DNA from: a virus
Taxonomy: Duplodnaviria > Caudoviricetes
Length of the DNA: 53,979 bases
IMG/VR virus record: IMGVR_UViG_3300032893_000062
Span: 1 to 53,979 of that record
Reading direction: 5' to 3' (one strand)
Position numbers and translations under genes: made by a program. This document shows, piece after piece, positions 1,011 through 31,264 of the stretch; position 1 is the stretch's first letter, and every line of letters begins with the position of its first letter. The notes below the pieces were generated by a model. The model made no database searches. It was not told where the DNA came from and saw only the letters and a program-made list of their open reading frames with translations.

Positions 1011-1222
1011 ACGCTCGGGGACCTTGGTTTTCTCGGGCAGGATGGCTCGCTCTTTCCTGTTGGTTTGCTCGGAAAAGTCGGCTCGCTCATCTTAGTTGGA
1101 TTTCTCTCTACCCCCGGCTCGCTCTCTTTACATGGGTTTCTCCACGGCAGTGGCTCGCTCGTGCCATCTGGTTTACTCAAAGGGCTTGGCTCGCTCAACA
1201 CGGCTGGTTTTCTCAACGTCCT
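1011..1222 (-). ncRNA. Orphan TIGR-like guide-RNA array, about 6 units of 36 nt
   Basis: On plus, (T/C)GGCTCGCTC occurs at 1043, 1079, 1115, 1151 and 1187, alternating with TGGNTTNCTC. Unique 8-nt segments separate them. The repeats match the array at 28321-28970. Confidence 0.85.
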
Positions 1223-1349
1223 GAGCAAAAAGCTTCAATTGCTCTTTTTCCTTTTTTTCCCACTTTACCTTCCGCCAGCAGAGATCGCCGTAGCCGCGAA
1301 CAACGGAGGTCCGGTTCTTCAAGACTCGGTGACAGCGGCGGCAGGTCAT
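1173..1349 (-). CDS. Small Cys-rich protein (DUF6011-like), 58 aa; not in the ORF track
   Basis: MTCRRCHRVLKNRTSVVRGYGDLCW fits the CxxC...S..RGxGxxC pattern. ATGA overlap with the upstream gene. Its 3' end runs into the array. Confidence 0.6.
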   Translation of the reverse strand: MTCRRCHRVLKNRTSVVRGYGDLCWRKVKWEKKEKEQLKLFAQDVEKTSRVERAKPFE

Positions 1350-2772: not shown

Positions 2773-3359
2773 TTTTTTCTCCTTTCATAGTCTTTCCAAT
2801 ATGACCTCATCTCTTCGTACGTCCGCCCCCCAAGGCTCTTGTACGTCCCCTTCTTCGGGTCCTCGGGGTCTACGTACTCCGTCAGTGGGATCCCGTGCTC
2901 GTCGGCGAAGCGCTCCAGCGTCTTGTTCGCCCAGTTCTCCTCTTCCTGGCTGGCGTCCGCTTCGGATATCGGCTCCTCCGCTCCGTCGAGAGAGAGACGA
3001 GTCCGCCAGTGCCCTTCTCCTGCGGTCATGCGTTTCATCGCCGCCTTCACCTGGTCCGCCGTGTAGAGGGATTGCCCAGCGTCGTCCGTGAGCCACTCCG
3101 CGATGTCCTGGCAGTGCCCGTGGAGTCGGTTCGACCCGCTCCGAGGGCCCGTCTTCCGAGGACGAAACGGAGCGTCAATTCGGAGGCGGAAATGGTCGTT
3201 CGTCTTCGCTCCGACGATGTTGAGAAAGTTCCAGAGCTCGTTGTGAACGACTCCCCCGGTTACCTCGAACGCCATCACGCCGCCGTCACCGGTCCGCTTC
3301 AAGTGGAAGGTGTAGTCGACGCCCATCGCTACAACCTGATCCTTTCTTTCTCGTGCCAC
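2769..3359 (-). CDS. NinB-like recombination protein
   Basis: RKTGPRSGSNRLHGHCQDIA...SEADASQEE...ERFADEHGI resembles the NinB/YbcN pattern. Confidence 0.5.
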   Translation of the reverse strand: MARERKDQVVAMGVDYTFHLKRTGDGGVMAFEVTGGVVHNELWNFLNIVGAKTNDHFRLRIDAPFRPRKTGPRSGSNRLHGHCQDIAEWLTDDAGQSLYTADQVKAAMKRMTAGEGHWRTRLSLDGAEEPISEADASQEEENWANKTLERFADEHGIPLTEYVDPEDPKKGTYKSLGGRTYEEMRSYWKDYERRKK

Positions 3360-3889
3360 TCGACGACGCGGTTGATCGCCTCCAGCTTCAGCGCGCTGAA
3401 CTCCGATGCCTTCACCGTCTCCGCCTTGTATGTCCCCTTCGCCGAGAGGTAGAGAACGATCCCCAGAGGGCCGCTGGGGTACTCAATCGAAAGGTCGCGG
3501 CGCCCCGCGAAGCCGAGATCTGGATCCCCGACGACTTCCTCGACCCCCTCTACTTGATAAGAACCGATTGCGGAGAGGAACCTTTTCAGGGCCGTCAGGT
3601 AGCCTTGCCACTTCGCGTCGAGCCCTTGCTCGTCAAGGATCGTCTGCATGTAGAGCGTCACCATCTTGTGGACGGATACCCCCCGCTCCGCGCTCCCCGG
3701 TTTGTACCAGTTGCTCTTTCCATCCCCAAGGATCGTCGTCACAGAGGGGAGTTTCCGGTCCCGCCAGAAGTAGCGGTGTCCTTCTTCGAGGAACGTGATC
3801 TCGGGGTTCCTCTTCCCGAGGATGTAGAGGGCTATCTGGAACCGATGCCACGGCTCCGGATGCCCACTCTTGATGTCGATGACCGTCAT
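3329..3889 (-). CDS. PD-(D/E)XK (RecB/Cas4-like) exonuclease with rearranged motif order
   Basis: Contains FLEEGHRY, LPSVTTIL, RGVSVH, E..V, FAGRRD, VIDIKSG and QIALY; the last two are at the N-terminus. Confidence 0.7.
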   Translation of the reverse strand: MTVIDIKSGHPEPWHRFQIALYILGKRNPEITFLEEGHRYFWRDRKLPSVTTILGDGKSNWYKPGSAERGVSVHKMVTLYMQTILDEQGLDAKWQGYLTALKRFLSAIGSYQVEGVEEVVGDPDLGFAGRRDLSIEYPSGPLGIVLYLSAKGTYKAETVKASEFSALKLEAINRVVEWHEKERIRL

Positions 3890-4638
3890 ACTCGATGTGC
3901 CGTTGAACCGACGTCCTGGAACGCCACCCCATCGTACACCACGGCGTCGTGGTTCGTTCGCGCCTGCGCGTCCCCCTCCGACTGATTGAAGAGGACCAGA
4001 GAGATCGGCGCCCGCCCCGCAGCGATCGCCTTCACCAGAGCGGGGAGATCGTGACAGATCGCTTTCCAGTGCGCTCGGTTCGACGTTCCCGCAGCAGACT
4101 CCACCTTCTCGGGCTGGACGACGGCGATCTCCGGCGGCTTCTCCGCGAGTTCGACGGCAAGTTTCGGGTCCATCTTCTTCGCATCCTCGATCTCCTTCGC
4201 GCGAGCGTCGTCGAGTTTCTTCTGCTCCTCCTGCCGCTTCTTCTCCGCTTCGTCGGCAAGTCTCTTGTTCTCTGCCCGCTGCCAGTCCCGGGCCTTTGGG
4301 TCGAGAATGGCTATCGCGTCGTCGTAGGGCTTCTTCAACTCGTCGATGAGCGCGATCACGCTGGAGTTAGCCTTGTCCGCAGCGAGCTTCGCGGCTTTCG
4401 TCTTCTCCCTGACAGTCTTGAACCGCTCGTCGATTACCTTCTTCCGCCGGGCGCACTCCTGGGCGATGGTCTGCGCCTGCTGCATCGTCTCGACGCTGGA
4501 GACGACGAACGCCTTCGCCCGCTCGACGAGGCTCCGTCCGTCCGCTCGCATGGCGGGGACTTTGATCTTCTCCCCCTGCACGTCCTCGGTCTCTTCAATG
4601 GTGGTGGCCTCTTCGGTCCCCATGTTGAGGTTTCTCAT
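3886..4638 (-). CDS. Coiled-coil phage protein in the recombination module
   Basis: Long charged helical region; located between ERF and the exonuclease. Confidence 0.6.
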   Translation of the reverse strand: MRNLNMGTEEATTIEETEDVQGEKIKVPAMRADGRSLVERAKAFVVSSVETMQQAQTIAQECARRKKVIDERFKTVREKTKAAKLAADKANSSVIALIDELKKPYDDAIAILDPKARDWQRAENKRLADEAEKKRQEEQKKLDDARAKEIEDAKKMDPKLAVELAEKPPEIAVVQPEKVESAAGTSNRAHWKAICHDLPALVKAIAAGRAPISLVLFNQSEGDAQARTNHDAVVYDGVAFQDVGSTAHRV

Positions 4639-5786
4639 CACATCCCTGCCTTTCCCAAAAGCTCGACTTTCCGGTCCGCAAGAGCCGCCGTCCAATCGAG
4701 GAACTTGCTCTCAAGCGCTGCGACGTCCCCCCAGACCGACTTCCCGTCCTTTTGGTACGCCGCGAGCTCCTCGTCAGAGAAAAGGACGTTGTACGGCCCT
4801 TCGTTCGGGAAGAGCCTCCGAGCCATCGTCTCGGAGATGATCGGCGACCCCTCCTTGTCGACGAGCGGCGTCCAACCTTTCGAGTAGATCTGCCCCATCT
4901 GGTTCAGAAGCCCCTGCAGACTCGCCCTCGCTTCCTTGATGTCACCCGCCACTACCTTCTGTGTCTTCGGCGGTTCGGGTTTCTTATCTTCTTTCGCAGC
5001 GGGAACTCTCACACCAAGTTCGTCAACGGGGACGCCCCCCACCGCGCGGGGTTCCGCAGGTGGTTCCTCGGGAGTTTCTACGTTCTCCCCGCGGCCGACG
5101 ACCCCCGTCCCGCCCATGTAGGCGTAGCGGATCGCGAAGCTCCGTGCCGCCATGTACTTCTGCATCGGCGACATCAGGTGAGTCCCCTCCCCGATCGGGA
5201 TCTCGATGGTCGTCTCCACGACGTGCCCTCCGCGGTGACGGAGAATGCAAGTCCCCGCCATGAAGGGGACCTTCAGCTCTGCATGGACGAACCCCTTCGC
5301 CTTCGTCGTCGCAGAGAACCCGTGCCGAGCGAGTATCGGGCCGATCTTCTCGACGATGTCCTCGTGCGGTGCGTATACGTAGAGAAGCTTTCCTCCGGGG
5401 CACGGCTGTCCTCTCACGAGTCCCGTGTTCTTGCAGAGGTCGCACTTCGTGTGATCGCGGGCCTCCGCCTTCTTCTCGATGATCGGGAACTCCGCCTGTG
5501 CTGCAGCCAAGCAATCGTTGAAATCCTTCTCCGCAACCTTCGCCTGGATCTGCTCGAACAGCGCCACAAGTTCCTTCATGTAATCGATCGAAACTTGGCG
5601 CTCAATCGCCTGCTCCATGAGTTTCTGGAGATTGATGAAGTCATGGACTGGCTCCGTGATAGAGACCTGTCCGATTGTCTGTGTCCTCATCGGAACAGCT
5701 TCTCCGATCGGAACCAAAGCCCCTCCCTTTTCTGACTTTGATACCCTGGCAGGCCGACCCTTCGCTGAAGTCTTTCTTTCTTTCAT
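4638..5786 (-). CDS. ERF-family single-strand annealing protein
   Basis: LAAAQAEFPIIEK...YVYAPHEDIVEKIGPILARHGFS...LRHRGGH...QKYMAARSFAIRY; contains a Cys-rich insert. Confidence 0.8.
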   Translation of the reverse strand: MKERKTSAKGRPARVSKSEKGGALVPIGEAVPMRTQTIGQVSITEPVHDFINLQKLMEQAIERQVSIDYMKELVALFEQIQAKVAEKDFNDCLAAAQAEFPIIEKKAEARDHTKCDLCKNTGLVRGQPCPGGKLLYVYAPHEDIVEKIGPILARHGFSATTKAKGFVHAELKVPFMAGTCILRHRGGHVVETTIEIPIGEGTHLMSPMQKYMAARSFAIRYAYMGGTGVVGRGENVETPEEPPAEPRAVGGVPVDELGVRVPAAKEDKKPEPPKTQKVVAGDIKEARASLQGLLNQMGQIYSKGWTPLVDKEGSPIISETMARRLFPNEGPYNVLFSDEELAAYQKDGKSVWGDVAALESKFLDWTAALADRKVELLGKAGM

Positions 5787-5807
5787 CTGGCTCTCTCCTT
5801 CCTGATG

Positions 5808-5836
5808 ATATTAGCACCCGGAAAACGATCTGTAAA
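5808..5836 (-). promoter_or_regulatory. Sigma70-like promoter for the ERF operon
   Basis: TTTACA-17 nt-TAATAT with extended -10 TG; palindrome AGTTATAACT at 5843-5852. Confidence 0.7.
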
Positions 5837-5851
5837 GAGTTAAGTTATAAC

Positions 5852-6271
5852 TCAGAAGGGTATGTCCTCCTGAAATCCGTCGGGCGCCGCTTCCGTCCTC
5901 GTCCGGGGCCCCTCGTCGTCCTGCCCTGACTCCCGCTGCGGGGCGTCTTTCTTTACCCACCATTCGACGCGATCCGCGAGGACGTACATCCGGGAGTGCT
6001 TCTGCCCGTCCTTCTCCCAGGAGTCGACGCGGAGCTTCCCAAAGACGCGCGACTTCATCCCCTTGTGAAGGTTCTCCGAGACGCGCTCCGCGGTCTTCTC
6101 CCATGCCGTCACGTCGATCCAGACGGGTTCCGACTTCCACTCCGTCCCGACCTTCTTCGAGAAGTTCGAGGCGATGGAGAACTTCACGACCGCTGTCCCG
6201 CTGGAGGTGTACTTCAGCTCTGGCTCCCGGCCGAGGTTCCCCTCGACGACGACAAGGTTCATGTCCTGCAT
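5852..6271 (-). CDS. ssb: Single-stranded DNA-binding protein
   Basis: MNLVVVEGNLGREPELKYT...W.DVTAW...LHKG...GKLR, with acidic C-terminal EDIPF. Confidence 0.97.
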   Translation of the reverse strand: MQDMNLVVVEGNLGREPELKYTSSGTAVVKFSIASNFSKKVGTEWKSEPVWIDVTAWEKTAERVSENLHKGMKSRVFGKLRVDSWEKDGQKHSRMYVLADRVEWWVKKDAPQRESGQDDEGPRTRTEAAPDGFQEDIPF

Positions 6272-7018
6272 TTATTTTCTCGCTTTCTTTATGGCAGCCA
6301 CAAGCCAACGAGAATATTTCTCTTTAGCTTTCCTTTTGGCGGCGGCGGCGTAGGCGGCGGCGTCGGCGGCGGCGTAGGCGGCGGCGTAGGCGTAGGCGTT
6401 GGCGGCGGCGTTGGCGGCGGCGTAGGCGGCGGCGTAGGCGTAGGCGTTGGCGTAGGCGTTGGCGTAGGCGGCGGCGTAGGCGGCGGCGTAGGCGGCGGCG
6501 TAGGCGGCGGCGTCGGCGGCGGCGTAGGCGGCGGCGTTGGCGGCGGCGTTGGCGGCGGCGTTGGCGGCGGCGTAGGCGTAGGCGTTGGCGTAGGCGGCGG
6601 CGTTGGCGGCGGCGGCGTTGGCGGCGGATCTGTCTTTCCCGCTTATCCACAATTCAGCCCATTCATTCCATGCCTTATCCTTGCATACCTTCTTGGCGAT
6701 CTTCACCGCATCGGTAGCAACGCGCATTGACCACGCGAGTACAACCTCTTTGGCATCAAAGGACCACAATACCTTGCGATTTCTGCATACCAGCTTGTCG
6801 TCCTTTTTCTCCATACCTCCGCTGCATTCAACGCGAGATACCGTAAAGCCGGGCGCATAGCGCCAGGCATCAACGATATCAACGCTTGCGTGATATCCAC
6901 TGGCGCACATTCGCAGTTCCCCGGTGTGCGTGTAGGTCTTCCCGACCTCCAACGGCTGGCCGTCCCGAAGGACATTCCCGTTGGTCCAGTGCCACGCTAG
7001 AACTCTTCTTTCTCTCAT
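6272..7018 (-). CDS. Phage protein with Ala-rich low-complexity repeat
   Basis: N-terminal domain with MCASGYHAS; about 95-aa tract of A/Y/N/D. Confidence 0.75.
   Translation of the reverse strand: MRERRVLAWHWTNGNVLRDGQPLEVGKTYTHTGELRMCASGYHASVDIVDAWRYAPGFTVSRVECSGGMEKKDDKLVCRNRKVLWSFDAKEVVLAWSMRVATDAVKIAKKVCKDKAWNEWAELWISGKDRSAANAAAANAAAYANAYAYAAANAAANAAANAAAYAAADAAAYAAAYAAAYAAAYANAYANAYAYAAAYAAANAAANAYAYAAAYAAADAAAYAAAAKRKAKEKYSRWLVAAIKKARK
6338..6626 (-). repeat. Codon-level repeat built only from GCC, TAC, AAC and GAC
   Basis: Plus strand reads as (ggc)n punctuated by gta, gtt or gtc. Confidence 0.95.
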
Positions 7019-7248
7019 CCATTTCTCCTTTCTTCTTCCCTGTCCTTCTCTACGTCGATCAGGCGCTCGACTACGTAGTCCGGCGACTCGCTGTCCTCGT
7101 CAAAGTGCACCATCGCCCGCTGCAAGCCGTCAACGTCCGGCTTCCCCATCGGTCGCGTCACCGTCGCTTTCCCCTCGACGAACATTTCATCGCTCAGCGA
7201 AGAGTTGCGGACGATCACGCGGTCGCCTTTAGAAAGTGCTTTCTTCAT
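7015..7248 (-). CDS. Hypothetical protein
   Basis: MKKALSKGDRVIV...; AGGAGG RBS upstream. Confidence 0.6.
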   Translation of the reverse strand: MKKALSKGDRVIVRNSSLSDEMFVEGKATVTRPMGKPDVDGLQRAMVHFDEDSESPDYVVERLIDVEKDREEERRNG

Positions 7249-7487
7249 CAATAGACCTCCTTCACGACGAACGTTGAAACAGCGCTGTACTCGCGCAGCT
7301 TCTTCCTCGCCACGGAGTCTGCGGTCTCCCCAGGGAGCACCGGTATCCATTCCTGCCAGTCCTGACCGTTCAAACGGTATTCGAGGACAACGGCCTTCGG
7401 CTGCACTCTCGCCCTCGATTCTCGGAACCGCCTCTCGCGATCGGTCGCCCACGCCCGAAGCTCCCGAAGCCGTTCTCGCTTGTTCAT
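7248..7487 (-). CDS. Hypothetical protein, first gene of the early operon (probably leaderless)
   Basis: ATG lies 7 nt after the -10 box. Confidence 0.6.
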   Translation of the reverse strand: MNKRERLRELRAWATDRERRFRESRARVQPKAVVLEYRLNGQDWQEWIPVLPGETADSVARKKLREYSAVSTFVVKEVY

Positions 7488-7494
7488 GGTCTAA

Positions 7495-7523
7495 AGTGTA
7501 TCACGAGTTATACCTATTGTAAA
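7495..7523 (-). promoter_or_regulatory. Sigma70-like early promoter
   Basis: TTTACA-17 nt-TACACT with extended TG; near-palindrome AGTTATACCT at 7506-7515. Confidence 0.7.
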
Positions 7524-7592
7524 GGAATCATGAGAAAAAAAGAGAAGATTTTTGGAGGGTCAAAACGACCCTCCGATGGGGGAAAAAAACTC

Positions 7593-7622
7593 TTTACAAA
7601 AACAGAAAAAGAGGGTTATGAT
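7593..7622 (+). promoter_or_regulatory. Divergent plus-strand promoter
   Basis: TTTACA-18 nt-TATGAT. Confidence 0.6.
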
Positions 7623-7752
7623 TTCACTTTGACAGGTTTCCATTGCAGATCGAACGGAGGGTACCCAAATGATCAACCAAAACTTTTCACCGCAGTCTTT
7701 TCTCTGCTTCAAGATGAAAGACTGATCCGGCCTTCAGGCAAAGGTGAAAAGG

Positions 7753-28301: not shown

Positions 28302-28325
28302 AAAAGCCCTCTTTTCAGAGGGCTT
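28302..28325 (-). terminator. Intrinsic terminator ending the array transcript
   Basis: AAGCCCTCT-tttc-AGAGGGCTT stem, followed on minus by a U-rich tract. Confidence 0.8.
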
Positions 28326-28970
28326 CGCTTACACGTCCTGGTTTTTCTCTTTTATCCTGGCTCGCTCCCCGCGAATGGATTTCTCCTTCACTTTGGCTCA
28401 CTCCGCGTCTCTGGATGACTTGACGCCTTTGGCTCGCTCCTCACTAATGGGTGTCTCCGTACCGATGGCCCGCTCTAGCAGATTGGGTTTCTCCCTTTGT
28501 TTGGCTCGCTCTCGTTCCATGGTTTCCTCGGGCGGAGTGGCTCGCTCTTCTGCTGGGATTCTTTACATCCTGGCCGCTTTTCCCCCTTGGGTTTCTCGCG
28601 ATGATCGGCTCGCTCCTTCAAACTGGGTTTCTCCCGCAGGTCTGGCTCGCTCAGGCCGCATGGTTTCCTCGTTTCGGATGGCTCGCTCGCCTTCAATGGT
28701 TTTCTCCCCTGGCAAGGCTCGCTCTTCTACTGGGATTCTTTACCTCCTGGCCGCTTTTACGCGAGTGGGTTTCTCTTGTGATATGGCTCGCTTTTCTCCT
28801 ATGGGTTTCTTGAGGGGGATGGCTCGCTCACCCTCGGTGGATTTCTCCATGCGCTTGGCTCGCTTTCGTTCCCTAATTTCATCTTCCCATATGGCTCGCT
28901 TGGCCTCAATGGTTTCCTCTGCCACAATGGCTCGCTCTCAAGCATTGGATTTATCAACAAGAATGGCATT
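28321..28970 (-). ncRNA. TIGR-like tandem interspaced guide-RNA array, about 18 units
   Basis: On plus, TGGCTCGCTC-type repeats start at 28358, 28394, 28430, 28466, 28502, 28538, 28571, 28606, 28643, 28679, 28715, 28748, 28784, 28820, 28856, 28892 and 28928. Each alternates with a TGGGTTTCTC-type repeat, with unique 8-9 nt segments between. Starts right after the Nop-domain gene stop. Confidence 0.9.
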
Positions 28971-28974
28971 CATT

Positions 28975-29754
28975 TCATGCGCTGTGTTTGTGTCCGAGCT
29001 TCGCTTCCTGATAGCTCGGCGTCACCGGCAACCCCTCGATCTCACGCCATGCCATCCAGAACTCCAAGAGAAACATCTTCATCATGTACCGGATGGCAGC
29101 GAAGTGCCGGTGTTTGTCGCTCTCGGTCTTCCAGCCCTCCTCATTGTCGAGGCGCCCCGTCAATCCCTGCTTCTGTTTTTCCTTCCCCATGTGCAACGGG
29201 TAATAGAACCGTAGAGCGTACGATGACTGACTCTTGATGAAAGAAGATCCGAGAACTCCAAGAAGCTTCGTCTTCAGCCAAGCGTTGTACGGGCATCGGA
29301 ATCCAGGAGTCTTCTTGTCCCCTCTGATCTTCGTCTCGCTGATCTTCCACTTTGGTCGTCCCTCGGCGTCCTTTCCATCAGACACCCAGCCGAAAACTTC
29401 TCCAGGATTCAGACCGCAATACTGCCACCACTTCGACACGTTCGGCTTTTCGATGTCGAGACTTGAAATCAGAACAGCACCCATGAGTTCGCCGACTCCC
29501 TTGACGTTCTGAAGCCAATCGATCCAGATGGGGTACTTCTTCAGCTCGGTCTTGATCATCTTCAAGGTTTCGTCGAGCTCTTTGTCGAGATTCCCCTGCA
29601 TGGTCCCGAGGTATGTTATCCCCTCCTCATCGGTCTCCATGCGGATTCTCGCTTCAGGGTCTTTGGGTGCAGCGGCAGCAAGCCTTTGATCGAATGAGAT
29701 TCGTGCCCGCTGAACATCGTAGTAGCACTGGACAAGCATCTTCAGCTTACTCAC
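28975..29754 (-). CDS. TasA-like protein: IS110 C-terminal/Nop RNA-binding domain, no nuclease domain
   Basis: Coiled coil, then WLQNVKGVGELMGAVLI, SKWWQYCGL, PYNAWLKTKL and HRHFAAIRYMMKMFL..FW..WR..EGLP. No N-terminal DEDD/RuvC or HNH. Array lies immediately downstream. Confidence 0.85.
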   Translation of the reverse strand: MSKLKMLVQCYYDVQRARISFDQRLAAAAPKDPEARIRMETDEEGITYLGTMQGNLDKELDETLKMIKTELKKYPIWIDWLQNVKGVGELMGAVLISSLDIEKPNVSKWWQYCGLNPGEVFGWVSDGKDAEGRPKWKISETKIRGDKKTPGFRCPYNAWLKTKLLGVLGSSFIKSQSSYALRFYYPLHMGKEKQKQGLTGRLDNEEGWKTESDKHRHFAAIRYMMKMFLLEFWMAWREIEGLPVTPSYQEAKLGHKHSA

Positions 29755-30415
29755 GGATCACCTCCTGGAGAACGTCGATCACTTCCGAGATGAGCGCCTC
29801 CATCTTCTCATCCACGGTGATGCTGTCGGACTCGAACGCAGCGATGATCTGCCTAAGATGAAACTCTATCGGCATACCGCTCATCGGTCCTTTTACGAAC
29901 TCAGCCTGCTCCTTGGTGATCGTTTCCTGGCTTGCCAGTTTCGGGTTGTTCGCCTTGACCGCCACAATCTCCGATGTTCCCTTGACTCTCTTCAGGCGAG
30001 AGCTGAGATCATCGTATCTGTTGCGGGAAATGCAGAGAACCTCGCAGATGTGATCGGCTGCGAATCTCTGATCAAGCATCATGTTGATGCTTCTCGCCAT
30101 GTCCCATGCAGTGAGTCGAAGCCCTTGGCGAGCATTCACTCGGATGGCGTCTTCGACCATTTCTTTACGGCTGGCATACGATTTCAGCTCAGCCTGAATC
30201 TTTCCGTCTTCTCCGTAAACAGCCTTGTTCGCCAAAAGACGGTGCATCCCATCGACCAAGACTTTGGTCTTGGCATTGATCAAGATCGGCGGAATCCCTT
30301 CGCCACCAGCGAGAAGAGCTTCCTTGATTGAAGAAACGTTCCCTGAAGAAATCTTGTGCCGAGGATACAAGGTCTCATCGACAAGTATCTCGGCCGTTTT
30401 GATAGATTCGGCCAC
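29747..30415 (-). CDS. ParB/Srx N-terminal domain protein
   Basis: LYPR...IPPILI...LVDGMHRLLA...AIRVNARQG, then HTH-like ADHICEVLCISR; 8-nt overlap with the Tas-like gene. Confidence 0.85.
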   Translation of the reverse strand: MAESIKTAEILVDETLYPRHKISSGNVSSIKEALLAGGEGIPPILINAKTKVLVDGMHRLLANKAVYGEDGKIQAELKSYASRKEMVEDAIRVNARQGLRLTAWDMARSINMMLDQRFAADHICEVLCISRNRYDDLSSRLKRVKGTSEIVAVKANNPKLASQETITKEQAEFVKGPMSGMPIEFHLRQIIAAFESDSITVDEKMEALISEVIDVLQEVIRE

Positions 30416-30471
30416 GGCTGGGCCTCCAAAACAGAAAGGTTGGATCGAACGGGCAACGCCACGTTAAAAAG

Positions 30472-30500
30472 ACAGTATCACGTTTCCGAAAGTCTGTCTA
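30472..30500 (-). promoter_or_regulatory. Promoter of the parB-tas-array cassette
   Basis: TAGACA-17 nt-TACTGT with extended TG. Confidence 0.65.
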
Positions 30501-30634
30501 CGTTTTTTTCAGGGCATCGACGATCATTTCCGACACGGACCGGCCGCTCTTTTCGGCCTTCTTTTCAATTGCTTTCTTCTCCTTCTCGGAGACGCGGACG
30601 GCGATGATGACGTTTTTCTTCTCCTTCGTGTGCC

Positions 30635-31264
30635 TCATCGCGCAATCTCCCGAATGAGCCGTTCCCAGTTTTTCAGCCAGTCCGCGGGCTGTTTCCCCCA
30701 GGTCCAGCCTTCAGTCTCCAGCACGTGCCGTGCTTCGTCCTCCCACGGGTTGCCCCATGTGTCATGCGCGTCGTCGTAGCTTAGGCCGACGACCCGCATC
30801 CCCTTGAAACCCTCCGCACACTCGTGGACGCAGGTCGAGAGAAAATCCACGGGGTCCAGAAGGTTGTGCAGGCATACTTCATCGCTCAGGCACCACGCCG
30901 TCGCGTGGTATCGGGGCTCACGGGCGGCGTATCCGTTCATGCCCATTACGAACTCCATGCACCCCTGCCCGCCGTCGGTTACGCGCTTCCGCACGTTGCG
31001 ACCGTTCACCGTGAAGACCTGGACGATCTCCCCGAGGAAGTTCACCGTCCCCACGTAGCGCTTGTCCAGGGATTGAGAGGTGTTGCTCTCGGCGGAGCGG
31101 ATTGCGTTGATCTGCTCTTCAGTGAGCGAATCGCCGATGTATCCCTTCAAGGCTACCTCCAACGGTTCCCCGCGCATGAGCCTTCGAGATACATCCTCGA
31201 CGAATCGCTCGGACAGTTCCATCAGTCTGCATACATCCCCGACGAATCGCTCGGACAGTTCCAT
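30635..31264 (-). CDS. Putative metal-binding protein with HExxE motif
   Basis: CVHECAEG...YDDAH; duplicated N-terminus. Confidence 0.55.
   Translation of the reverse strand: MELSERFVGDVCRLMELSERFVEDVSRRLMRGEPLEVALKGYIGDSLTEEQINAIRSAESNTSQSLDKRYVGTVNFLGEIVQVFTVNGRNVRKRVTDGGQGCMEFVMGMNGYAAREPRYHATAWCLSDEVCLHNLLDPVDFLSTCVHECAEGFKGMRVVGLSYDDAHDTWGNPWEDEARHVLETEGWTWGKQPADWLKNWERLIREIAR

What the first reader, a model, noticed from the sequence alone, without database searches (positions are those of the whole stretch)
29747..30415. ParB-like CTPase translationally coupled to TasA: candidate effector for a nuclease-free guide system
Seen: a ParB/Srx motif (DGMHR...N.RQG) and an HTH-like segment, with the stop overlapping the Tas-like start (GTGAGTAA). 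I found no ParA and no integrase in the genome. Established: ParB CTPases load at specific sites, spread along DNA and can silence promoters. Inference: TasA plus guide could act as a programmable loading site for this ParB, giving RNA-guided silencing, or tethering and segregation of an episomal phage. I cannot confirm whether this pairing has already been characterised.
Basis: inference. Interest (0 to 1): 0.85.

Follow-up and report, generated by a model that had tools for sequence, protein, structure and literature searches.

The report
ParB-like partner gene of phage TasA
A phage gene for a ParB-like DNA-binding protein is joined in one operon to a nuclease-free RNA-guided protein (TasA) and its guide array, a pairing already noted in print but still of unknown function.

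Summary
Window 29747-30415 (-) encodes a 222-aa ParB/Srx-fold plus HTH protein. Its stop overlaps the GTG start of a 259-aa nuclease-free TasA, which is followed by a 36-nt dual-repeat TIGR array and a terminator. The 54-kb phage genome has no ParA and no integrase.

The pairing is not new. Faure et al. 2025 (Science) named this gene tasParB and noted its operons with tasA, but no function was tested.

My survey supports a real functional link:
- ParB-linked TasAs are 24 of 35 rows in one TasA clade and 0 of 44 in the other.
- TasA and ParB subclades mirror each other.
- Start/stop overlaps recur in other loci.

"CTPase" is unproven. The GxxR motif and the Asn are kept, but two residues mutated in solved ParB structures (Q52, E93) are Tyr and Met here. 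No guide matches the phage's own genome, which argues against self-segregation.

New here: Tas-less relatives of this ParB-like protein sit beside Vipr, the Cas7-like protein of phage VIPR systems, with pentanucleotide arrays. Earlier scan notes on other DNA had seen such loci. One accessory family therefore serves two unrelated nuclease-free guide systems.

Most likely it helps RNA-guided silencing of foreign DNA.

The parts
29747..30415 (-). tasParB-like CDS, 222 aa: ParB/Srx N-terminal domain, HTH and a conserved C-terminal helical part
   Evidence: ORF. Family profile against PDB ParB. AF2 pLDDT 96.4. Foldseek matches.
30239..30253 (-). DGMHR (residues 55-59), which aligns with the ParB box II motif GERR. 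G56, H58 and R59 are invariant.
   Evidence: Alignment to 7bnk/7o0n. G, H and R are present in 76 of 76 family rows.
30122..30136 (-). NARQG (residues 94-98), which aligns with NLQR of the ParB box III motif ENLQR. Asn94 is kept. The preceding Glu position is Val93.
   Evidence: N in 75 of 76 rows.
30002..30058 (-). Helix-turn-helix segment (residues about 120-138)
   Evidence: Secondary structure of the AF2 model. PDB alignments reach the ParB HTH.
30423..30427 (-). GGAGG ribosome-binding site 7 nt before the tasParB GTG
   Evidence: Sequence read.
29747..29754 (-). GTGAGTAA: the tasParB stop overlaps the tasA start
   Evidence: Overlaps of -4, -8 or -1 nt between the two genes occur in 9 related loci.
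29758..29766 (-). AGGAGGTGA ribosome-binding site for tasA, inside the 3' end of tasParB
28975..29754 (-). tasA CDS, 259 aa: Nop-domain Tas protein with no nuclease domain
   Evidence: PDB hits 9mty_A at 1.8e-12 and TasH 21kl_A at 1.8e-11. phrog_4285 at 1.9e-36. No Pfam nuclease domain.
28358..28964 (-). Main dual-repeat TIGR array. Period 36 nt, edge repeat GAGCGAGCCA, loop repeat GAGAAACCCA, 8-nt spacers. It includes two short variant units.
28303..28326 (-). Intrinsic terminator after the array
1016..1223 (-). Second, orphan TIGR array with the same two repeats, about 5.5 units, ending in a hairpin

Best explanation
What it is. This is a tasParB gene: a ParB/Srx-fold plus HTH protein made from the same transcript as a nuclease-free TasA and its tigRNA array. 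The operon sits as an insert among the late genes of a complete phage genome that lacks an integrase.

Most likely mechanism.
1. TasA dimers loaded with 36-nt tigRNAs (8+8-nt spacers) bind 16-bp sites on foreign DNA, either a competing mobile element or the host.
2. TasParB acts there as the accessory DNA-binding partner. It strengthens or extends transcriptional or replicative silencing, possibly through a nucleotide-gated N-domain.

Shown: the fold, the operon, the array, conserved co-inheritance with TasA, and homology to the ParB-like gene that accompanies Vipr in VIPR loci.

Inferred: physical recruitment by TasA, nucleotide binding, the silencing role, and what the targets are.
For: Operon. 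There is an 8-nt stop/start overlap with an internal RBS. The array and terminator lie downstream.

TasA-centred survey.
- 23 of 81 viral loci carry a strong homologue (HMM E<1e-60) on the same strand within about 2.2 kb: 20 upstream and 3 downstream.
- 9 of these overlap by 1-8 nt.
- 4 of 15 MAG loci also have it directly upstream.

TasA tree (79 rows; 3 truncated ORFs under 200 aa dropped). All 24 ParB-linked TasAs fall in one starred clade of 35. The other clade has 0 of 44. The subclades mirror the ParB clades.

ParB-centred scans of the two Tas-linked clades. 13 of 15 and 10 of 10 loci have Tas. Among contigs not already found through TasA, 7 of 9 have it.

Careful ParB tree. The 24 Tas-linked rows, including the window, form one side of a branch against 38 unlinked rows, with support 85/88.

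The same accessory family in a second guide system.
- Tas-less relatives (26-37% identity over about 200 residues) sit beside a roughly 200-aa protein in 30 of 42 loci.
- That protein folds as a Cas7-type RAMP (pLDDT 91.0). Its top Foldseek hits are type VII Cas7, Csm3 and Cmr6.
- It is homologous to phiSUSP1 Vipr.
- It has period-5 arrays nearby in 35 of 42 loci. Control periods 4, 6 and 7 give 0 of 42.

Published context.
- TasA RNPs repress transcription without a nuclease (Xu et al. preprint 10.64898/2026.09.09.750476, passages).
- In phage SUSP1 a VIPR accessory gene of another family, vap1, is needed for function (10.64898/2026.10.15.759431, passages).
Against: - Nothing here shows that TasParB and TasA touch.
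- TasA alone represses in the published assay, although that was a stem-loop-type TasA, not this clade.
- 11 of 35 TasAs in the linked clade lack the gene within 6 kb, including the closest relatives L004, L005 and L007. It is therefore dispensable for some.
- The quick ParB tree placed the window with the unlinked half. The careful tree's grouping is only moderately supported.
- Residues of canonical ParB that were mutated in solved structures (Q52, E93) are not conserved, so a ParB-like CTP clamp cycle cannot be assumed.
- No target of any guide was found.
- SUSP1 vap1 does not belong to this ParB-like family, so its genetics transfer only by analogy.
Confidence: 0.5

Rival explanations
1. 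TasParB supplies the missing enzymatic activity. A ParB/Srx-fold NTPase or nuclease-like domain would act on DNA held by TasA, for example by nicking or by nucleotide-dependent remodelling, rather than by passive spreading.
For: - An invariant, active-site-like set is kept in 75-76 of 76 family rows: D13, G56, H58, R59 and N94.
- The Arg-to-His change in box II and the loss of the canonical Gln and Glu suggest a chemistry different from ParB CTP hydrolysis.
- One member weakly hits GmrSD_N and one hits a DGQHR Dnd model.
- VIPR types III-V use enzymatic accessory genes (passage).
Against: - The best sequence and fold matches are DNA-clamp ParB, Noc and KorB, not nucleases.
- No metal-binding acidic cluster was identified.
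- The VIPR paper groups its DNA-binding accessories with repression, not destruction.
Confidence: 0.15
2. TasParB is an operon-specific transcription factor that works like KorB. Its HTH binds a fixed site and controls expression of tasA and the arrays. It does not work at guide-specified targets.
For: - An HTH is present.
- KorB 8qa9 is among the best fold matches (TMq 0.49).
- The gene always lies in the same transcription unit as tasA.
Against: - No palindromic operator was found in the 281 bp scanned around its start, window 30380-30660.
- No sigma-70-like promoter was found between 28100 and 31400, though the host is unknown.
- The HTH residues are poorly conserved while the N-domain pocket is invariant.
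- A mere regulator would not be expected to be shared with VIPR loci, which have unrelated promoters and arrays.
Confidence: 0.15
3. Partition or tethering. TasA plus guide marks the phage genome, or a host site, and TasParB segregates or anchors an episomal prophage.
For: - ParB homology.
- No integrase in a complete genome, so an episomal state is conceivable.
Against: - No ParA-type ATPase.
- 0 of 15 canonical guides match the phage's own genome with <=1 mismatch in either strand geometry, with gaps of 0-2.
- The operon sits among late structural genes.
- No lysogeny module was seen in the ORFs scanned. Those calls covered 20 of the larger ORFs, not all of them.
Confidence: 0.05
4. Neighbours only. 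The tasA-TIGR module and the ParB-like gene share an insertion hot spot and have no joint function.
For: - The ParB-like family is much wider than TIGR loci: 1 of 42 loci from the broad scan has Tas.
- 11 of 35 clade TasAs lack it.
Against: - The TasA and ParB subclades mirror each other.
- Start/stop overlaps recur.
- 7 of 9 newly found contigs, ascertained through ParB alone, have Tas.
- The published text says flanking genes differ between loci (passage).
Confidence: 0.05

Closest known systems
tasParB-tasA operons of TIGR-Tas systems (Faure et al., Science 2025, PMC12045711; passages read; fig. S14 not seen because supplements are closed)
   Same: - A ParB-like gene in an operon with a nuclease-free tasA.
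- Dual-repeat arrays with 10-nt repeats.
- Phage context with variable flanks.
- ParB likeness visible only to profile methods.
   Different: - Nothing essential differs.
- This locus adds a second orphan array 28 kb away and a small RHH gene upstream.
- I could not compare it directly with the published TasParB sequences.
ParB-like gene beside Vipr in phage VIPR loci. VIPR is described in preprints 10.64898/2026.04.26.720920 and 10.64898/2026.10.15.759431 (passages and section 9 read). The word ParB occurs 0 times in their main texts.
   Same: - The same protein family: 26-37% identity over nearly the full length, with shared D13, G56, H58, R59 and N94.
- Tightly coupled to a small nuclease-free RNA-guided DNA binder and flanked by its guide arrays.
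   Different: - The guide protein there is a Cas7-like RAMP with GGYNN pentamer guides, not a Nop-domain TasA with 36-nt tigRNAs.
- The window has no Vipr homologue and no period-5 array.
- The tested accessory, SUSP1 vap1, belongs to another family.
Canonical ParB CTPase clamps: Spo0J/ParB, Noc and KorB
   Same: - ParB/Srx N-domain followed by an HTH.
- The GxxR motif and the box III Asn are conserved.
- These are the best sequence and fold matches.
   Different: - No ParA and no parS-like site found.
- Box II is DGMHR, not GERR.
- The positions of M. xanthus Q52 and E93 are Tyr and Met.
- The Glu of ENLQR is Val.
- The C-terminal part carries its own conserved motifs (K154, Q170, G180, Q189).
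- CTP binding is untested.
KorB-KorA of plasmid RK2: a ParB-family clamp held by a small site-specific partner for long-range repression. The mechanism is recalled from memory. The structure 8qa9 appears.
   Same: A ParB-fold protein paired with a separate site-specific DNA binder in a silencing role. 8qa9 gives TMq 0.49.
   Different: The site-specific partner here would be an RNA-guided TasA dimer. No interaction has been shown.

Membership tests
TasParB (TIGR-associated ParB-like protein, Faure et al. 2025) | ParB-like protein detectable by profile or structure methods | tested here: met
TasParB (TIGR-associated ParB-like protein, Faure et al. 2025) | Encoded in an operon with a nuclease-free tasA | tested here: met
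   8-nt overlap. TasA identity.
TasParB (TIGR-associated ParB-like protein, Faure et al. 2025) | Dual-repeat TIGR array with 10-nt edge and loop repeats next to the gene pair | tested here: met
TasParB (TIGR-associated ParB-like protein, Faure et al. 2025) | Sequence relationship to the published TasParB examples | not testable with these tools
As a proxy, the window groups with 23 other Tas-linked ParB-like proteins (support 85/88).
ParB CTPase clamp (ParB/Spo0J/Noc/KorB) | ParB/Srx N-domain followed by an HTH | tested here: met
ParB CTPase clamp (ParB/Spo0J/Noc/KorB) | Box II GERR with both arginines | tested here: not met
   DGMHR: the first Arg is His58, invariant in 76 of 76 rows.
ParB CTPase clamp (ParB/Spo0J/Noc/KorB) | Gln of QPR and Glu of GERR. 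These are the residues mutated in 7bnr (Q52A) and 7o0n (E93A). Their role in hydrolysis is recalled from memory. | tested here: not met
   They align to Tyr17 and Met57. Family-wide the positions hold Y/W/T and F/N/M.
ParB CTPase clamp (ParB/Spo0J/Noc/KorB) | Box III ENLQR | tested here: inconclusive
   Asn94 is kept (75 of 76 rows). The Glu position is Val here, Glu in 12 of 33 Tas-linked rows and Leu in 26 of 43 unlinked rows.
ParB CTPase clamp (ParB/Spo0J/Noc/KorB) | CTP binding and hydrolysis, and loading at a specific site | not testable with these tools
   Needs biochemistry.
Type I ParABS partition system | A cognate ParA ATPase encoded nearby | tested here: not met
   0 matches to PF13614 and PF01656 in the complete genome.
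VIPR system | Vipr RAMP protein and GGYNN pentamer array | tested here: not met
   The Vipr HMM gives 0 hits among the window's ORFs. The window has no period-5 array.

The most novel reading that the evidence does not exclude
One phage ParB-like family is a portable silencing module. Two unrelated nuclease-free guide proteins, Nop-domain TasA and Cas7-like Vipr, each recruit it to guide-specified sites. In this reading the RNP replaces parS as the loading site, and a nucleotide-gated ParB-fold clamp spreads or bridges DNA to shut down a rival element.
Probability: 0.2. Interest if true: 0.85.

Novelty: new member of a known kind. Interest (0 to 1): 0.5.

Why it matters
- The function of nuclease-free TasA systems in nature, and of tasParB in particular, is open. 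The only paper in the searched library that names tasParB reports the association and a model, with no experiment.
- This locus is a clean, complete-genome example with tight coupling.
- The comparative result gives a concrete hypothesis. The same ParB-like family accompanies both TasA and Vipr, and no searched paper holds both 'vrRNA' and 'tigRNA'. This suggests a shared downstream effector for RNA-guided silencing, which could be tested by swapping the proteins between systems.
- If the effect is real, it may offer a compact way to boost programmable repression.

Tried and rejected
- Complex prediction of TasA (alignment A1) with TasParB (A2): ipSAE 0.01 and 0.00, verdict 'no answer'. This is no evidence either way.
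- Single-sequence searches with the window protein found nothing in Pfam, NCBIfam, the PDB or PADLOC.
- The word-based search found only 2 proteins.
- tblastn against 50,697 deposited phage genomes: 0 hits for TasParB and 0 for a VIPR-linked relative. TasA hit 5 records from 3 phages.
- Guide targets in the phage's own genome: 0 hits with <=1 mismatch for 15 canonical units, and 2 hits with 2 mismatches. Over all 17 units, shuffled A/B pairs gave means of 0.05, 1.25 and 16.5 hits at 0, 1 and 2 mismatches, dominated by the two 6+6-nt units.
- Guide targets in 1.62 Mb of fetched loci: 0 exact and 5 one-mismatch hits. My own estimate of chance is about 3.
- I did not scan public collections with 16-mers, because by my estimate chance hits would number in the tens to hundreds per pattern.
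- The RHH gene and the two upstream ORFs were not found in related loci by tblastn.
- The inverted-repeat scan of 30380-30660 found only one 9-nt palindrome.
- The promoter scan found none.
- The quick ParB tree suggested at least 3 origins of the Tas link. The careful tree did not uphold separating the window from the other Tas-linked rows, so I dropped that claim.
- I did not see the supplements of the TIGR and VIPR papers. They may already show the ParB-like vap or this cross-link.
Full report
**The sequence.** Window 29747-30415 (-) is an open frame of 222 codons with a GTG start, preceded by GGAGG 7 nt upstream. It holds DGMHR (residues 55-59) and VNARQG (93-98). Its TAA stop lies inside GTGAGTAA, and the GTG of that octamer starts the next ORF, 28975-29754 (-), 259 aa. 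AGGAGGTGA sits 29766-29758, at the right distance for that GTG. A public gene call instead begins at the ATG five codons later (P0003, 254 aa). In that case the genes would be 7 nt apart rather than overlapping.

**The neighbour is a Tas protein.**
- It matches phrog_4285 at 1.9e-36.
- In the PDB it matches 9mty_A, an 'IS110 C-terminal domain' protein, at 1.8e-12, and TasH chains at 1.8e-11.
- It has no Pfam nuclease domain, so it is a TasA.

Directly downstream lies a dual-repeat array with a 36-nt period. The edge repeat is GAGCGAGCCA, the loop repeat is GAGAAACCCA and the spacers are 8 nt. It ends in an intrinsic terminator at 28326-28303. A second array with the same repeats lies at about 1223-1016.

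**The genome.** The window is a whole virus record of 53,979 bp with direct terminal repeats, rated 100% complete. Genes identified:
- portal, large terminase, a helicase-methyltransferase and primase-like proteins;
- a Mu F-like protein and a DUF2213 protein;
- major head, baseplate, tail, Erf and replication-initiator proteins.

All lie on the minus strand. The tasParB-tasA-array unit sits between the Mu F-like gene and the DUF2213 and major-head genes. There is no match to tyrosine or serine recombinases or to ParA-type ATPases.

**Is it ParB-like?** On its own the protein is nearly invisible:
- 0 Pfam hits even at E<=10;
- 0 NCBIfam hits;
- 0 PDB hits;
- 0 PADLOC hits;
- only PHROG phrog_1033 'ParB-like partition protein' at 9.2e-5.

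An exhaustive search shows a large family: 1310 cluster representatives at E<=1e-3 and 625 at <=1e-10. Most of the 150 listed are about 215-250 aa long.

A 64-member alignment gives a profile with these results:
- It hits M. xanthus ParB (7o0n, 7bnr and 7bnk; 2.1e-5 to 7.2e-5), B. subtilis Spo0J 6sdk, Noc and T. thermophilus Spo0J.
- 10 of 64 members reach Pfam ParB_N.
- 14 of 64 reach NCBIfam Noc and 11 of 64 reach parB_part.

The AF2 model is very confident (pLDDT 96.4, pTM 0.88). Its best PDB fold matches are ParB-CDP, Noc, pNOB8 ParB-N and KorB (E from 2.4e-5).

**Is it a CTPase?** The alignments place YPR under ParB's QPR, LPPI under LQPI, DGMHR under GERR and NARQG under NLQR.
- The structures 7bnr and 7o0n are the Q52A and E93A mutants (titles). 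Their changed residues align with Tyr17 and Met57.
- Across 76 family rows, G56, H58, R59 and D13 are invariant and N94 is present in 75.
- The position before N94 is Glu in only 12 of 33 Tas-linked rows.

The nucleotide-pocket GxxR and the Asn therefore persist. The residues I recall as needed for CTP hydrolysis do not. 'CTPase' is an open question, not a finding.

**What is in print.**
- Faure et al. [quoted passage not shown] Their Methods name the gene tasParB, describe 10-nt repeats and an AlphaFold3 model of two TasA with two TasParB, and report HHpred matches to ParB CTPases (passages).
- 'TasParB' occurs in no other paper of the searched library.
- The only relevant paper holding TasA, ParB and TIGR together is the same one.
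- Xu et al. (preprint 10.64898/2026.09.09.750476; outline and passages) show that a TasA RNP binds DNA and represses transcription. ParB occurs 0 times in that text.

**Neighbourhood survey, starting from TasA.** A 30-sequence TasA alignment retrieved 218 viral relatives, of which 80 were kept. With L001 and L002 that makes 81 loci.
- A family HMM found a strong ParB-like ORF (E<1e-60) on the same strand in 23 of 81 loci: 20 upstream and 3 downstream.
- Overlaps were 4 nt in seven loci, 8 nt in one and 1 nt in one.
- In MAG contigs, 4 of 15 TasA loci have it directly upstream.
- In a quick TasA tree of 79 rows (three ORFs under 200 aa dropped), all 24 linked TasAs fall in one starred clade of 35. 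The other clade of 44 has none. The subclades match the ParB clades.
- Eleven TasAs of the linked clade lack the gene within 6 kb, including L004, L005 and L007, the window's nearest relatives.

**Neighbourhood survey, starting from ParB.**
- A scan with the alignment of one Tas-linked clade (A5) gave 15 loci at >=42% identity, 13 of them with Tas.
- The other clade (A6) gave 10 of 10 with Tas.
- Counting only contigs not already found through TasA, 7 of 9 have Tas.
- A scan with a broader alignment (A3) gave 42 loci, of which only 1 has Tas.

In the careful tree of 65 ParB-like rows (L123 dropped for a weak hit), the Tas label needs 3 changes. The 24 linked rows, including the window and L003, are one side of a branch against 38 unlinked rows, with support 85/88, not starred. 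The earlier quick tree had put the window among the unlinked rows, so this placement is only moderately secure.

**What accompanies the Tas-less relatives.**
- In 30 of the 42 loci a protein of about 200 aa lies beside the ParB-like gene, often overlapping or abutting it. It is absent from the 81 TasA loci and from the window.
- It belongs to phrog_4652, 'unknown function', and has no Pfam hit.
- Its AF2 model (29 sequences, pLDDT 91.0) matches Cas7-type RAMPs. There are 33 PDB hits at E<=1e-3, and those listed are type VII Cas7, Csm3, Cmr6, gRAMP and Csf2 chains or their effector complexes.
- Arrays with a 5-nt period, of the GGC/GGT-NN type, flank these genes in 35 of 42 loci that hold both genes. 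The figures are 3 of 49 for ParB-plus-Tas loci and 3 of 69 for Tas-only loci. Periods 4, 6 and 7 give 0 of 42. Some contigs were fetched twice and so count twice.

Earlier notes of this scan named such loci VIPR systems and pointed to 2026 preprints. I checked this:
- The protein is homologous to phiSUSP1 Vipr (tblastn 2e-8; HMM 2.8e-28).
- The preprints describe Vipr, GGYNN vrRNAs and accessory 'vap' genes. vap1 enhances protection, and deleting it abolishes it.
- The three VIPR texts contain 'ParB' and 'TIGR' 0 times.
- No searched paper holds both 'vrRNA' and 'tigRNA'.
- SUSP1 vap1 (146 aa) does not match the ParB-like family. The ParB-like gene is therefore another accessory class, and I cannot say which without the supplements.

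**Targets.** Fifteen canonical 8+8-nt units were tested in both possible strand geometries with gaps of 0-2.
- 0 match the phage's own genome with <=1 mismatch.
- In 1.62 Mb of fetched loci there are 0 exact and 5 one-mismatch matches, about what I estimate for chance.

The guides therefore point away from the phage itself. The targets are unknown.

**Reading.**
- Conserved coupling, mirrored phylogenies and use of the same accessory family by two unrelated nuclease-free guide systems make a joint function with TasA the best explanation. I give 0.5 to its most likely form, a DNA-binding helper that strengthens or extends RNA-guided silencing of foreign DNA.
- An enzymatic role (0.15) or a purely regulatory role (0.15) cannot be excluded.
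- Partition of the phage is unlikely (0.05).
- The locus is a new member of a known kind. The link to VIPR is the part that I did not find in print.

Noticed in passing
L082-L123 and L137-L152, e.g. L104:4203-5904: Tas-less relatives of the ParB-like protein sit beside a Cas7-like RAMP (phrog_4652, homologous to phiSUSP1 Vipr) and are flanked by GGY-NN period-5 arrays. These are VIPR loci whose accessory gene is ParB-like. The main texts of the VIPR preprints never use the word ParB.
   Followed up: yes
L097:2855-7059: A hybrid locus: a Tas-like ORF (2855-3703), Vipr-like (4336-4980), ParB-like (4980-5663), a period-5 array (5706-6003) and a second Tas-like ORF (6112-7059). I saw no TIGR-type array in the two stretches I read.
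   Followed up: partly
window 1016-1223 (-): A second, orphan TIGR array with the same edge and loop repeats, about 5.5 units, ending in a hairpin. It lies next to the replication-initiator gene, 28 kb from tasA.
   Followed up: partly
window 30498-30638 (-): A 46-aa ribbon-helix-helix ORF (Pfam NikA-like 3.1e-10, RHH_1 5.9e-7). It has an ATGA overlap with the upstream ORF and lies 82 nt before tasParB. tblastn did not find it in related loci.
   Followed up: partly
window 28547-28590 and 28724-28767 (-): Two near-identical short variant units (6+6-nt spacers, variant repeats AAGCGGCCAG and AAGAATCCCA) lie 177 nt apart inside the main array.
   Followed up: partly
L004, L005, L007, L013, L014, L019, L021, L023, L031, L047, L051: These TasAs belong to the ParB-linked clade but have no ParB-like gene within 6 kb. 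Seven of them form one starred subclade, which suggests a single loss.
   Followed up: no
L155:3995-7712 (same contig as L017): One TasParB gene is followed by two tas genes (5152-6060 and 6834-7712).
   Followed up: no
NC_010811.2 13546-14181 (hit H2): The TasA relative of Ralstonia phage phiRSL1 is annotated 'transposase' in RefSeq. Phrog_4285 carries the same label. This is probably a carried-over IS110-type annotation.
   Followed up: no
A6 alignment (L008, L010-L012, L016-L018, L022, L024, L041): One Tas-linked ParB clade has SGNHR and ELR in place of DGxHR and YPR. It keeps Glu-Asn at the box III position.
   Followed up: partly
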